Made by a program: the position numbers and the translations under genes. 64,000 nt of DNA from Octopus vulgaris (Eukaryota), in the NCBI GenBank assembly GCA_951406725.2, contig OX597831.1, forward strand, positions 80,662,001-80,726,000, given 5' to 3'. Of this stretch, positions 22,097 through 64,000 are shown in pieces (positions within the stretch are counted from its first letter, which is position 1; every line of letters starts with the position of its first letter). The notes under the pieces were generated by a model. It was not told where the DNA came from. It did no database searches and was given only the letters and a program-made list of their open reading frames with translations.

Positions 22097-22245
22097 TATA
22101 GGGAGAGTTCACGAAAAAACAAGAGACGAAGACAGGTGGTGTAGGAAACAAACAGATGTTTTAGTATAATGATCGGGAATTGAAAAAGTTTCAAACAAGG
22201 AAAGAAAAAATGTGTGTAGGGGCTATCGATCTATCATGGCAACTA
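22097..22245. repeat. (TA)n-anchored repeat F, internally deleted
   Basis: Matches 58731-58915 but lacks its hammerhead segment. Confidence 0.8.
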
Positions 22246-41054: not shown

Positions 41055-41127
41055 TCAATTGTGGCCTAATGGATAAGGCATCAGCCTCCGAAGCTGAAGA
41101 TTGTGGGTTCAAGTCCCATCAGGGTCG
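41055..41127 (+). pseudogene. tRNA-Arg(CCG) pseudogene, broken acceptor stem
   Basis: D arm GCCTAATGGATAAGGC, anticodon arm TCAGC-CTCCGAA-GCTGA, T arm GTGGG-TTCAAGT-CCCAT. The 5' acceptor TCAATTG pairs with CAGGGTC at only 3 of 7 positions. Confidence 0.8.
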
Positions 41128-57782: not shown

Positions 57783-58363
57783 TGTCCTAAGTGTGGCTGT
57801 GTGGTAAGAAGCTTGCTTCCCAACCACATGATTCCAGGTTCAGTCTTAATGTATGGCATCTTGCCTAAGTGTCTACTGCTATAGATTCAGGCTAACCCAA
57901 GTGGATTCGGTAGACAGAAACTGAAAGAAGCCCATTGTGTGTGTGTGTGTGTGTGTGCACGCCCTTTTAGCTATATTTTTAGGCCGGGTGTGCCACCGAA
58001 TTTTGAAAAGAATATAAGTGTACCAGAAGTGAAATAAAAAGCTTGTGGAGCACTGCTCCAAGCCAATCAGTTGACGGTGTGTGTGTGTGTATGTGGTAAA
58101 GAGGAGAGGCTCTTCTTTGTCTTGCTGGTTGCTTAGCAACCTCACTAGTACCAGTGTCATAAGCAGAAGAAGAAAAAAAGCCCCCAGTACACTCTGTAGA
58201 GTGGTTGACATTCAGCCATAGAAACCATGGCAAGACCACCATTGGTGCTCAGTTCAGTCCTTAGGCTTATCTCAGCCTCTTCAACTGTTCAACCCATGCC
58301 TGCATGGAAGACGGATGTTAAATAATAATTGTCTTCCCTTCTCTGGATCTTTCCTTTTCCTAC

Positions 58364-58398
58364 GTTTCTGACGAAGAGCTCCGCTCGAAACGTTAAAC
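58364..58398 (+). ncRNA. Minimal type I hammerhead ribozyme motif
   Basis: GTTT-CTGACGA-A-GAGC-TCC-GCTC-GAA-ACGT-T-AAAC: stem I GTTT/AAAC, stem II GAGC/GCTC, palindromic stem III ACGT. Confidence 0.7.
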
Positions 58399-58524
58399 CC
58401 TCCTTCGTTCTTTCCTTTCCTGTGCTTCCAATAAGACTATACTTGTTCCATGTCCTCACATTGTTGTGTTTTCTCTTTGTGTTTTCATGTTTGGATTAAC
58501 TACATTCTGTCCGAGTCGGATGCC

Positions 58525-58915
58525 ATGATAGATCATTAGCCACTACACACATTTTTGCTCTCCTTGTTTTTTCTGTGTCCCTTTCTGTAGAAGAGCGTAG
58601 GCTCGAAACGTAAAATACTTTTTCTATTCCTGAGCATTATACTAATACATCTGTTTGTTTTGTACACCACCTGCCTTCGTCTTTGTTTATTTTCGTAAAC
58701 TTTCCCTTTATATATATATATATATATATATATAGGGAGAATTCACGAAAAAAACATAAGACGAAGACAGGTGGTGTACAAAACAAACAGATGTATTAGT
58801 ATAACGCTCGGGAATTAAAAAGTAGTTTACGTTTTGAGCCTACGCTCTTCTACAGAAAGATACACAGAAAAAAACAAAGAGAAAAAAATGTGTGTAGTGG
58901 CTACTGATCTATCAT
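58525..58915. repeat. Inverted pair of repeat F around (TA)n, each arm with a variant hammerhead
   Basis: 58525-58710 is the inverted complement of 58731-58915; motif TTT-CTGTAGA-A-GAGC-GTAG-GCTC-GAA-ACGT-A-AAA at 58582-58615. Confidence 0.85.
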
Positions 58916-58923
58916 ATAATATA

Positions 58924-58961
<38 letters not shown>

Positions 58962-59023
58962 AGTTTAAATAGAGATTAAAATAACATTTTAATAACCTAA
59001 TGATATGCTTTTTACCTTTTTAC

Positions 59024-59107
59024 TCCGCTGACGAGATTTTGTCGCAAAGAATGTTTTAATTACTGGAATTTAATTCGTTTGGGAAAAATTAAAACAGCTG
59101 TAAGGGA
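59024..59107 (+). ncRNA. Degenerate hammerhead motif with long stem II
   Basis: CTGACGA-GATTTT...AAAATT-AAA-ACAGCTGT-A-AGG; G12 is lost. Confidence 0.45.
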
Positions 59108-59155
59108 ACGTGTTGAATATTTGTAGTTAATAAATTATATTAACGCTACTTCTCC

Positions 59156-59221
<66 letters not shown>

Positions 59222-59223
<2 letters not shown>

Positions 59224-59608
59224 TGCTGGAGTGACTGTGTGGTAAGTAACTTGCTTACCAACCATATGGTTCTGGGTTCTGTCCCACTGCGTTGCATCTT
59301 GGCCAAGTGTCTTCTACTATAGCTTCGGGCCGACTAAAGCCTTGTGAGTGGATTTGGTAGACAGAAACTGAAAGAAGCCCGTCATATATATGTATATATA
59401 TATATATGTTTGTGTGTCTTTGTCCCCCTAGCATTGCTTGACAACCGATGCTGGTATGTTTATGTCCCCATCACTTAGCGGTTCGGCAAAAAGAGACCGA
59501 TAGAATAAGTACTGTGCTTACAAAGAATAAGTCCCGGGGTCGAGTTGCTCGACTAAAGTGGTGCTCTGGCATGGTCACAGTCAAATGACTGAAACAAGTA
59601 AAAGAGTA
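59222..59608 (+). mobile_element. SINE family A, full length
   Basis: Complete head, body and tail. Confidence 0.88.
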
Positions 59609-59751
59609 TATATATATATTTGTATTTATAGAGTGTTAAACATTTTCAGTTTGAAAATTAGGGACTCCTTCATAGAGTAACTGCGGCATTTGTTGAGTAT
59701 ATAAACAGTTTGGCTAATTGTTTCTCTGGAGACTGACAGAATGATGTAGAC

Positions 59752-59794
59752 ACCTCTGATGAGAATACAACAATGTTCGAAAATTGATTAAGGT
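59752..59794 (+). ncRNA. Minimal type I hammerhead ribozyme motif, canonical core
   Basis: ACCT-CTGATGA-GAATA-CAACAA-TGTTC-GAA-AATTGATT-A-AGGT; all three stems pair; predicted UUA cleavage triplet. Confidence 0.75.
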
Positions 59795-59891
59795 TGTTCA
59801 TCATTTTTTTCAGTCTGTGGAGAAATGGCTAAAATGTGCCCAGTTTATAATTATACCATATGTTACATATATATATATATATGTATATATA

Positions 59892-60618
59892 TTGGGTTGT
59901 CCGGAAAGTTTGTGCCAATTTTTAAAGGAAAGAAAAAGGTCAATAAATACTTGCCATTACATTTTTTACCAACCATATATGAACCATTTTGTTGCACAAT
60001 GCGTCTCCATCTTTCCTTTAACTTGAAAATACCCTCTTCCCAGAATTGAGGTGGTTTCATGGCAAAGAATTCATCAAGGTATCTTTTTACAATATCCAAG
60101 GAATTAAAATTTTTACCATTAAGACTGTTCTGCAGAGACCTGAATAAGCGGAAATCTGAAGGAGCAATATCTGGTGAATATGGAGGGTGAGGTAACACAT
60201 CCCAGCCGCACTGCAGCAATTTTTGTCTGGTTCCCAAAGCATCAAGTGCCAAAAATGAACTTTCTTATCTTCCATTTTAAAAGGTTACAGAATTACAGTG
60301 AAGATGCCGACGACTGCTCGGTTCAAAGTCTCTCTTGACCAAAAATGGCATGAACTCTTTGCATGAACACAACCCTGTACATAACTCCATGTCCCCCTAC
60401 ATGGCCTTGCTTTTTGCTTTTTGAGCCAAAAAATTAACTTAGCTTAACTTAACTTAACACAGGTTATAGGAACATAAAACTTCTTCCACGAAAAGATAGC
60501 TTAGACTGTGCTCTAAATGGAGGTGTAGTCAAATCCTATTTTATGGACTCAACCATGTTCTAATAGAAGTCGAAATGTAAGCTACTATAAATCGGTACAA
60601 ACTTTCCGGACAACCCAA
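59892..60618 (-). mobile_element. Internally deleted mariner with both TIRs
   Basis: TA|TTGGGTTGTCCGGAAAGTTTGT ... ACAAACTTTCCGGACAACCCAA|TA; N-terminus MEDKKVHF joined to HPPYSPDIAPSDFRLF..GIFKLKERW. Confidence 0.93.
60297..60458 (+). mobile_element. CR1 3' end nested in the mariner
   Basis: Same family as 10465-10660; (CTTAA)n tail. Confidence 0.8.
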
Positions 60619-60750
60619 TATATCAGAAATTACAATAAACACAAATTCATTTTATTTGTTATATACATACATGTGTGTGTGTGTATAGATGGATAGATAG
60701 ATGAATGTATAAATGATTATGTGTGTGTGTATATATAGTCCTCTAAATTT

Positions 60751-60787
<37 letters not shown>

Positions 60788-60788
<1 letters not shown>

Positions 60789-61122
60789 AAATTTAGAGGA
60801 CTGACCACTAAAAGTGGACAGCCTTTATGCTAGATATAGACATCAAAATCGCCATTTTCCACGAAGAATGTGTTCTCAAGAAAAAACTCAGCAAAAAACC
60901 CAAAGTGTAAAAATAAGCAAGAGTTTGTTTCTTGAGAACACATTCTTCATGGAAGATGGTGATTTTGACGTCTATATCTAGCATAAAGGCTGTCCACTTT
61001 TCGTGGTCAGTCCTCTAAATTTTATATGTATAAAGAAATTTTCCATCTTCAGATTTTTTTTAAAATATGCTAGAGCACTGGTTTTAATTCATTAATATCA
61101 ATTTCTACCCTTATTTAATTTT
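60788..61122. repeat. Fold-back repeat (~100-bp arms) plus tail, in (TA)n
   Basis: 60788-60889 is the inverted complement of 60921-61023. Confidence 0.9.
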
Positions 61123-63864: not shown

Positions 63865-64000
63865 AGAGTAGACCCAAAAAAGAACAACAAACACAAAAAA
63901 CAACAATGCGAGGACGTGGTACATGTAAAGTATTAGCAGAAGCTCAGGGAAGGAAACAAATATGGTTTAATGTTTCGAGCAAAGCTCTTCTTCAGGAACA
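63865..64000 (-). repeat. (TA)n-anchored repeat with hammerhead motif, same family as 58330-58503
   Basis: Minus strand GTTC-CTGAAGA-A-GAGC-TTT-GCTC-GAA-ACAT-T-AAAC; runs off the window end. Confidence 0.7.

What the first reader, a model, noticed from the sequence alone, without database searches (positions are those of the whole stretch)
58330..59865. Cluster of minimal hammerhead ribozyme motifs in (TA)n-anchored non-coding repeats: candidate Penelope-associated retrozyme system
Seen: five hammerhead-like motifs within 1.5 kb (58364-58398, 58582-58615, its inverted copy near 58825-58858, 59024-59107, 59752-59794), in at least three dissimilar carrier repeats that abut (TA)n. They share a CUGANGA...GAAA..UH-type core, but their stem sequences differ while still pairing. 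Established: minimal type I hammerheads with palindromic stem III occur in Penelope-like element terminal repeats and animal retrozymes, and cleave as dimers. Inference: these are non-autonomous, ribozyme-processed retroelements that target TA microsatellites. The first two motifs are co-oriented 218 nt apart, so a transcript could release a ~218-nt monomer or circle.
Basis: partly seen in the sequence, partly recalled or inferred. Interest (0 to 1): 0.85.

Follow-up and report, generated by a model that had tools for sequence, protein, structure and literature searches.

The report
Penelope-element ribozymes piled in TA repeats
The five self-cutting-RNA (hammerhead) motifs lie in pieces of four different repeat families that likely landed one after another in the same TA-rich spot; they are mostly an ordinary feature of Penelope-type jumping genes, although one young family carries a changed catalytic letter and another looks like a small non-coding ribozyme element whose cutting is untested.

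Summary
All five motifs are real hammerhead-family sequences, but they are not one system. They belong to four dispersed repeat families. A and B are truncated 3' ends of two Penelope-like element (PLE) families of the Neptune/Nematis type: other copies run back into RT and GIY-YIG coding sequence. The inverted copy is a second B. D is an old non-coding family with no parent found. E is a 305-nt non-coding unit in partial head-to-tail tandems, which is retrozyme-like. Only the A and E copies here keep a canonical core; inverted B and D have lost G12. The 218-nt A-B spacing looks accidental: 0 of 24 other A copies are followed by B, and 0 of 24 other B copies follow A. One oddity: the B lineage has U at core position 6 in 94 of 97 copies while position 7 varies freely, yet it includes very young tandem elements. 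The scan had already noted that variant and other retrozymes elsewhere in this genome. Cleavage and circles are untested. Verdict: new members of a known kind.

The parts
58330..58500 (+). Family A: 5'-truncated 3' end of a Neptune/Nematis-type PLE family
   Evidence: 40 scored hits at 92-100% from 1430 first-look candidates. Walking upstream reaches decayed RT/EN sequence; 5 of 20 loci show RT/EN remnants with co-oriented A about 1.0-1.15 kb downstream.
58364..58398 (+). Minimal type I hammerhead A: canonical core, extra A after A9, 4-bp stem II, ACGU palindrome, predicted cut after 58394
   Evidence: A6 in 94 of 96 copies. The lowest-energy fold is a competing hairpin.
58501..58708 (+). Family B: 5'-truncated 3' end of a young Neptune/Nematis-type PLE lineage
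   Evidence: L096 has RT and EN remnants upstream of B. 23 of 30 endonuclease-search loci have co-oriented B downstream. L129 is a partial tandem with an 804-codon RT-EN reading frame.
58582..58615 (+). Minimal hammerhead B with U at core position 6, predicted cut after 58612
   Evidence: U6 in 94 of 97 B-lineage copies; position 7 is A 40, U 35, C 12, G 10.
58709..58734 (.). (TA)13 tract at which the 3' ends of B and inverted B meet
58735..58915 (-). Second B copy, inverted; hammerhead 58825-58858 has lost G12 (58835), likely dead
   Evidence: 89.7% identical to B. It carries the other allele at 3 of 7 scorable bi-allelic columns, plus a gap at an eighth, so it is likely a separate insertion.
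58914..58961 (.). (TA)n tract
58966..59158 (+). Family D fragment, old and AT-rich; hammerhead 59024-59107 with long stem II and loop; this copy has lost G12 (59091)
   Evidence: 40 scored of 269 candidates, best non-self 81-88%. Family motif. No coding parent found.
59162..59221 (.). (TA)30 tract
59620..59872 (+). Family E: 0.83 of a 305-nt non-coding unit that occurs in partial head-to-tail tandems; retrozyme-like
59752..59794 (+). Hammerhead E: canonical core, 5-bp stem II, 8-nt stem III palindrome with wobble, predicted cut after 59790; stem I continues as a long rod over about 59705-59836
   Evidence: rod fold -45.4 kcal/mol, z -4.30, 0 of 200 shuffles as stable.

Best explanation
The 1.5-kb stretch holds pieces of four separate hammerhead-bearing repeat families, which likely inserted one after another into the same (TA)n-rich site; A and B are truncated 3' ends of protein-coding Penelope-like elements. 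Shown: the families, their fixed 3' ends at TA, the coding parents of A and B, and the 305-nt partial tandems of E. Inferred from established PLE biology: a GIY-YIG endonuclease nicks (TA)n, reverse transcription starts at the RNA 3' end and usually stops early, so 200-400-nt ends carrying the ribozyme are left behind; each insertion leaves TA that attracts the next. Inferred: E is a non-autonomous retrozyme-like unit copied by PLE enzymes from a multimeric or circular RNA, and D is the long non-coding end of an unidentified older element. In source elements the ribozyme would cut slowly, as a dimer through the palindromic stem III. At this locus the copies are probably inert.
For: B: RT and GIY-YIG frames upstream. 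Pfam RVT_1 at E 9.5e-08 and a weak GIY-YIG match. Linker motif C-x4-C-xx-C. L129 has two 1,250-nt direct repeats 99.1% identical, with hammerheads 4,537 nt apart. A: RT/EN remnants then co-oriented A in 5 of 20 loci, with the same linker motif in L313. TA after the 3' ends. A and B are found apart (0 of 24 each way). Other families sit beside them in other loci. Min-HHR architecture and mostly solitary truncated copies are described in PMC4209133; its supplement lists an Acropora digitifera Neptune motif of nearly the same layout as A. E: 49 of 63 pattern-picked copies end at the same phase, 16 of 63 exceed one unit, and the junction is fixed.
Against: The GIY-YIG Pfam score (17.4) is under its cut-off (22.6). 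The clade was not placed on a tree. Five other A-then-B neighbours exist (L002-L006), although the joint query selected for them. No parent was found for D or E. No E array reached two full units (maximum 1.94). Core positions are barely more conserved than flanks across copies: A 0.964 vs 0.944, D 0.931 vs 0.909, E 0.950 vs 0.936, B 0.984 vs 0.913. Between two B subfamilies the ribozyme is 26 of 28 identical against 145 of 177 outside, p=0.18. No cleavage data exist.
Confidence: 0.85

Rival explanations
1. A and B together form a chimeric retrozyme: a read-through RNA folds a hetero-dimeric hammerhead and releases a 218-nt monomer or circle.
For: The cut sites are co-oriented and 218 nt apart, and both stems III are ACGU palindromes, so a heterodimer can be drawn. 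Five similar A-B neighbours exist.
Against: 0 of 24 and 0 of 24 in family-wise samples. Spacing varies from 208 to 227 nt with TA length. Both families have coding parents. B has U6, and its ribozyme is predicted to pair fully with the inverted copy.
Confidence: 0.04
2. The hammerheads in these families, B's above all, no longer cut; the motif is a relic or a structural signal carried along at the element's end.
For: U6 is fixed in the B lineage. A natural A6C variant is slow and poor in Mg2+ (PMC3088659; PMC7151607). Min-HHRs cut poorly in vitro (PMC4209133). The lowest-energy folds of A and B are not the active fold.
Against: Between the window's B and the young L129 subfamily, the only two changes in the 28-nt motif are at the tolerant positions 7 and 17. 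Across many families, the stems change while still pairing and the core persists. This rival does not compete with the pile-up reading; it concerns only catalysis.
Confidence: 0.3
3. Family E is not a retrozyme copied from a circle or multimer but an internally deleted PLE (terminal repeat, short spacer, terminal repeat) copied from a linear RNA.
For: No array of two or more full units was seen. 5' ends cluster at phases 169-201, just ahead of the ribozyme (26 of 63), as a repeat boundary would give. The 3' end lies about 75-85 nt past the cut site, not at it.
Against: Several copies reach 1.55-1.94 units, past that boundary, with a fixed junction. No coding relative of E was found. The two models overlap, since retrozymes are proposed to derive from PLE terminal repeats (bioRxiv 10.64898/2026.07.22.740005).
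Confidence: 0.35

Closest known systems
Minimal hammerheads (min-HHR) in PLE terminal repeats, e.g. the Acropora digitifera Neptune element (Cervera and de la Pena 2014, PMC4209133; parts 1-2 of 4 read; supplement file 2 searched and part 2 of 3 read; file 1 not searchable)
   Same: A and B have the extra base between 9 and 10.1, the G10.1-C11.1 pair, a short helix I, a palindromic 15.2/16.2 and a place at the end of an RT-EN element; most copies are solitary and truncated.
   Different: B has U6. Every core in the alignment rows I read (part 2 of 3 and the Acropora-to-Hydra passage) has A at position 6.
EN+ Penelope-like elements of the Neptune and Nematis clades (Craig et al. 2021, PMC8557442; passages read)
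   Same: RT followed by a C-terminal GIY-YIG, a CX2-5CxxC linker, partial tandems, inverted 5'-truncated neighbours and a microsatellite bias.
   Different: These particular families are not described in what I read. Neptune versus Nematis was not resolved. The 3' untranslated tail is about 1 kb of simple repeats.
Metazoan non-LTR retrozymes (Cervera and de la Pena 2020, PMC7229834, parts 2-3 of 6 read; Li, Clavereau and Pollet 2026, bioRxiv 10.64898/2026.07.22.740005, part 1 of 5 and passages read)
   Same: Family E only: a 305-nt non-coding unit, 38% GC, a type I hammerhead with a short palindromic helix III, head-to-tail repeats and a strongly self-paired predicted fold.
   Different: E was seen only as partial tandems under two units, with a fixed 3' end at TA. 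Circular RNA and cleavage are not shown. A and B are not retrozymes.
Natural A6C hammerhead of phage Bcep176 (PMC3088659, passages; PMC7151607, abstract and passages)
   Same: A natural change at core position 6.
   Different: That one is A6C in a single phage sequence, slow and favouring Mn2+. Here the change is A6U, fixed in a large and recently active animal retroelement lineage, and untested.

Membership tests
PLE minimal type I hammerhead (A, B) | Core CUGANGA...GAAA..UH | tested here: met
   Family A: A6 in 94 of 96 copies; window copy intact.
PLE minimal type I hammerhead (A, B) | A at position 6 in family B | tested here: not met
   U6 in 94 of 97 copies; all other core positions are kept. 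B is therefore filed as a variant, not a plain member.
PLE minimal type I hammerhead (A, B) | Extra base after A9, G10.1-C11.1 pair, palindromic stem III, short helix I | tested here: met
   features as listed in PMC4209133.
PLE minimal type I hammerhead (A, B) | Located in the terminal repeat of an RT-EN element | tested here: met
PLE minimal type I hammerhead (A, B) | Self-cleavage as a dimer | not testable with these tools
   Needs in vitro assay.
Rfam hammerhead families | Match to a covariance model | tested here: not met
   No hammerhead row or among the 77 rows.
EN+ PLE, Neptune/Nematis type (parents of A, B) | Reverse transcriptase domain | tested here: met
   L129: Pfam RVT_1, E 9.5e-08, 32.4 bits against a cut-off of 29.6. 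A parent: remnants by tblastn at 35-75% identity.
EN+ PLE, Neptune/Nematis type (parents of A, B) | C-terminal GIY-YIG endonuclease with CCHH | tested here: inconclusive
   Pfam GIY-YIG at E 0.0056, below the cut-off. CxxC inside the domain and two later histidines are visible by eye.
EN+ PLE, Neptune/Nematis type (parents of A, B) | CX2-5CxxC linker between RT and EN | tested here: met
   L129 residue 547; L313 in a frameshifted remnant.
EN+ PLE, Neptune/Nematis type (parents of A, B) | Partial tandem forming pseudo-LTRs; inverted neighbours | tested here: met
   L129 tandem; inverted B upstream of L130; inverted A upstream in L297.
EN+ PLE, Neptune/Nematis type (parents of A, B) | RT phylogeny within Neptune | not tested
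   No reference set was in hand.
Non-LTR retrozyme (A+B as one unit) | Recurring non-coding unit bounded by two hammerheads | tested here: not met
Non-LTR retrozyme (E) | 150-450-nt non-coding unit with a type I hammerhead | tested here: met
   305-nt unit. In the 50 E loci scanned by tblastn, three had PLE remnants, all separate from E.
Non-LTR retrozyme (E) | Tandem arrays with two or more consecutive hammerhead units | tested here: inconclusive
   Partial tandems with two cores occur; 8 of 63 copies reach 1.4 units or more; the maximum is 1.94 units; no full dimer or multimer was seen.
Non-LTR retrozyme (E) | Expressed as a self-paired circular RNA | not testable with these tools
   Only the fold is predicted: z -3.2 for the majority unit as a circle, 60 shuffles.
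Non-LTR retrozyme (E) | Target-site duplications | not tested
   Obscured by the TA flanks.
PLE or retrozyme (D) | Coding parent or tandem unit | tested here: inconclusive
   Neither was found over about 2.2 kb of overlapping non-coding sequence.

The most novel reading that the evidence does not exclude
A large, recently active Penelope-like lineage has fixed a change at a normally invariant catalytic-core base (A6U) while keeping the rest of the hammerhead and letting only the tolerant positions drift. The dimeric ribozyme therefore either works with U6 (a new functional core), or PLEs keep the hammerhead fold for a job other than fast cutting. Sister family A, with A6 in a nearly identical scaffold, is a ready natural control for the open question of what PLE hammerheads do.
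Probability: 0.35. Interest if true: 0.55.

Novelty: new member of a known kind. Interest (0 to 1): 0.3.

Why it matters
As a cluster it matters little: hammerheads in Penelope-like element ends are known and very abundant, and shared TA targeting explains the pile-up. Two by-products are useful. The A/B pair offers a natural A6 versus U6 comparison in sister retroelement families, one of them very young, which bears on whether PLE ribozymes must cut for the element to move. Family E adds a 305-nt candidate retrozyme whose insertions look like those of PLEs, in line with the proposed PLE origin and mobilisation of animal retrozymes.

Tried and rejected
(1) Rfam scans gave no hammerhead. The microRNA rows only reflect the B/inverted-B hairpin and are all below their gathering scores. 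(2) A first impression that E copies start just after the cut site (12 of 13 copies reaching the upstream unit began at phases 248-301) did not hold. In 63 pattern-picked copies, 8 began at 263-295 but 8 spanned 1.4 units or more. In 30 copies picked by a second pattern, 1 began at the cut and 0 at 233-250. (3) PLE remnants beside three E copies (L060, L159, L163) are separate insertions. (4) Three searches for family D, a fourth further upstream and fetched flanks found no reading frame with similarity to the B-lineage protein in the parent position; a distant PLE clade could be missed by that single query. (5) Core-versus-flank conservation was uninformative. (6) Sequencing runs: no RNA holder listed. 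The four runs laid (4 of 20) are contigs only guessed to be RNA and showed no start or end pile-ups, so they say nothing on cleavage, strand or circles. (7) Lunse et al. (PMC5785218), the main paper on small PLE hammerhead variants, is not held, so it may already list a U6 variant. A text search for hammerhead + A6U + catalytic core gave 0 papers. Searches for octopus with Penelope terms gave no paper on these families. (8) Look-ups of earlier scan notes by sequence for B and E, and by nearby place, were blank.

Full report
Setting. The window lies in a 2.8-Gb animal assembly of 227 contigs, dense in microsatellites. Earlier scan notes call it a cephalopod; I did not test that.

Observation. 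All five motifs are present. A strict hammerhead descriptor found A (58368) and B (58585) and nothing in 100 Markov copies of the window. The other three fail the strict scan for clear reasons: inverted B and D have A in place of G12, and E has a wobble in its stem III palindrome. Rfam gave no hammerhead hit.

Four families. Searching the genome with each piece gave dispersed families: A+B 4620 first-look candidates, D 269, E 2080, A 1430. Only 40 were scored each time, so these are not copy numbers, and best-hit sampling favours complete, similar copies. A, B and E copies end at a fixed 3' point. (TA)3+ follows within 24 nt in 78 of 88 A, 69 of 83 B and 85 of 166 E copies, against 6% of random window 24-mers (overlapping loci were de-duplicated by context, imperfectly). 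5' ends vary.

B is a PLE end. One B copy (L027/L096) continues upstream into decayed RT and endonuclease sequence. Searching with that endonuclease piece gave 12,567 candidates, and the 150 scored were 82-100% identical. 23 of 30 fetched loci had co-oriented B-type sequence downstream; five had none, one had it only upstream and one inverted. L129 is a partial tandem: a truncated copy followed by a full-length one, with 1,250-nt direct repeats 99.1% identical and hammerheads 4,537 nt apart. Its 804-codon frame matches Pfam RVT_1 (E 9.5e-08) and weakly GIY-YIG (E 0.0056, under the cut-off), and has the CX2-5CxxC linker that marks the Neptune and Nematis clades (PMC8557442, passages).

A is the end of a second such family. 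Walking upstream led through about 1 kb of simple-repeat tail to decayed RT/EN sequence. 5 of 20 loci showed RT/EN remnants with co-oriented A downstream inside the 1.5-kb flank. L313 has the same linker motif and is 67.6% identical in DNA to L129 over 1.3 kb. A and B align weakly around and after the ribozyme. Motif A has nearly the layout of the Acropora digitifera Neptune motif in the supplement of PMC4209133.

No 218-nt unit. 0 of 24 other A copies are followed by B, and 0 of 24 other B copies are preceded by A. Five A-then-B neighbours, found with the joint query, have core spacings of 208-227 nt against 217 here, across TA tracts of different length. That is what insertion of B into A's TA tail would give. 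B and its inverted neighbour are 89.7% identical and differ at 3 of 7 scorable bi-allelic columns plus a gap, so they are probably separate insertions. In a read-through RNA they are predicted to form a long duplex covering all of B's ribozyme.

The U6 core. B-lineage copies have U at position 6 in 94 of 97 cases, while position 7 is A 40, U 35, C 12, G 10; A, D and E keep A6 (94 of 96, 39 of 44, 171 of 173). All 28 motifs matched in the endonuclease-search loci have U6. The window's B and the young L129 subfamily differ at only positions 7 and 17 within the 28-nt motif, but 26 of 28 against 145 of 177 outside is not significant (p=0.18). A natural A6C variant is slow and prefers Mn2+ (PMC3088659; PMC7151607). 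I found no A6U paper and no U6 core in the parts of the PMC4209133 supplement that I read, but Lunse et al. could not be read. An earlier scan note (e1-9573165) reports the same variant.

E is retrozyme-like. The unit is 305 nt and 38% GC. Copies run head to tail across a fixed junction. Of 66 exact pattern matches I fetched the 65 outside the window; 2 were dropped because the best alignment missed the anchor. Of the remaining 63, 49 end at the same phase about 75-85 nt past the cut site, 16 exceed one unit, 8 reach 1.4 units or more, and the longest is 1.81. Among 30 of 71 matches to a second pattern the longest is 1.94. No full dimer was seen. Stem I extends into a long rod (window copy z -4.30; majority unit as a circle z -3.2). 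Stem III can close as two pairs and a tetraloop, as in invertebrate retrozymes (PMC7229834). 5' ends cluster at phases 169-201, just ahead of the core (26 of 63, against 7 in the 48 flanking nt; p about 1e-5, window chosen after the fact), and not at the cut site. A circular or multimeric template is inferred, not shown; a deleted-PLE origin fits almost as well.

D is unresolved. The family motif has a stem II of about 10 bp with a long loop. Copies are 70-88% alike, 5 of 19 loci have an inverted partner, and shared non-coding sequence extends at least 1.36 kb upstream and about 0.37 kb further by overlap. No coding parent or tandem junction was found.

Other evidence. A relaxed scan of all loci held at that point found 146 hammerhead-like hits in many unrelated stem variants and 0 in a 600-kb control, so hammerheads are common here and a cluster at a TA hotspot is unsurprising. 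Core positions are only slightly more conserved than flanks across copies, as expected for neutrally decaying insertions. Sequencing data were uninformative.

Verdict. The motifs are real and PLE-linked, as known from PMC4209133, PMC8557442, PMC6765202 (passages), PMC7229834 and the 2026 preprint. The cluster is most likely a pile-up rather than a system. New members of a known kind, interest 0.3, with the U6 lineage and family E worth a bench test.

Noticed in passing
window 59222-59600 and 57793-57946: A very high-copy short repeat with a tRNA-like head sits between D and E, with a second partial copy upstream. I recall it as an octopus SINE; that label comes from no call.
   Followed up: no
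window 22100-22241 (-) and 63874-63999 (-): Further decayed B and A copies lie elsewhere in the window.
   Followed up: partly
window 41060-41121 (+): A tRNA-like match at Rfam gathering level, 52.1 bits, model positions 6-65 only.
   Followed up: no
window 59867-59930 and 60580-60622; also 60772-61039: Two inverted-repeat pairs: the first flanks about 750 nt with transposase-like remnants by eye; the second has 115-nt arms 90% complementary. Both are likely DNA-transposon derivatives.
   Followed up: no
Family E, unit phases 169-201 (L321-L385): 5' truncation points pile up on the 5' strand of the long stem I, so many short copies keep just the whole ribozyme (26 of 63; 6 of 30 in a second sample). 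Unexplained.
   Followed up: partly
Family D, e.g. L047 and L033: The long loop II is complementary over 9-11 nt to a stretch about 100 nt upstream of the core and to one near the 3' end (read by eye); this may be a long-range contact.
   Followed up: no
window 58362-58393: The 5' strand of stem I in A can pair with the GAAA-containing strand, giving a 7-bp hairpin that blocks the active fold; the family majority can do the same with one G-U pair. It may act as an off state.
   Followed up: partly
Loci L001-L415: At least a dozen other type I hammerhead families turned up in flanks, several with long loop II, and three hits with C at position 6.
   Followed up: no
L217 (between the E copy and a PLE remnant): A processed, poly(A)-tailed copy of what looks by eye like a ribosomal protein mRNA lies just upstream of a truncated PLE.
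   Followed up: no
G000:C8:24516000-24535000 (L317, L318): Three tandem copies of the A-parent coding region about 6 kb apart, with no A end detected.
   Followed up: partly
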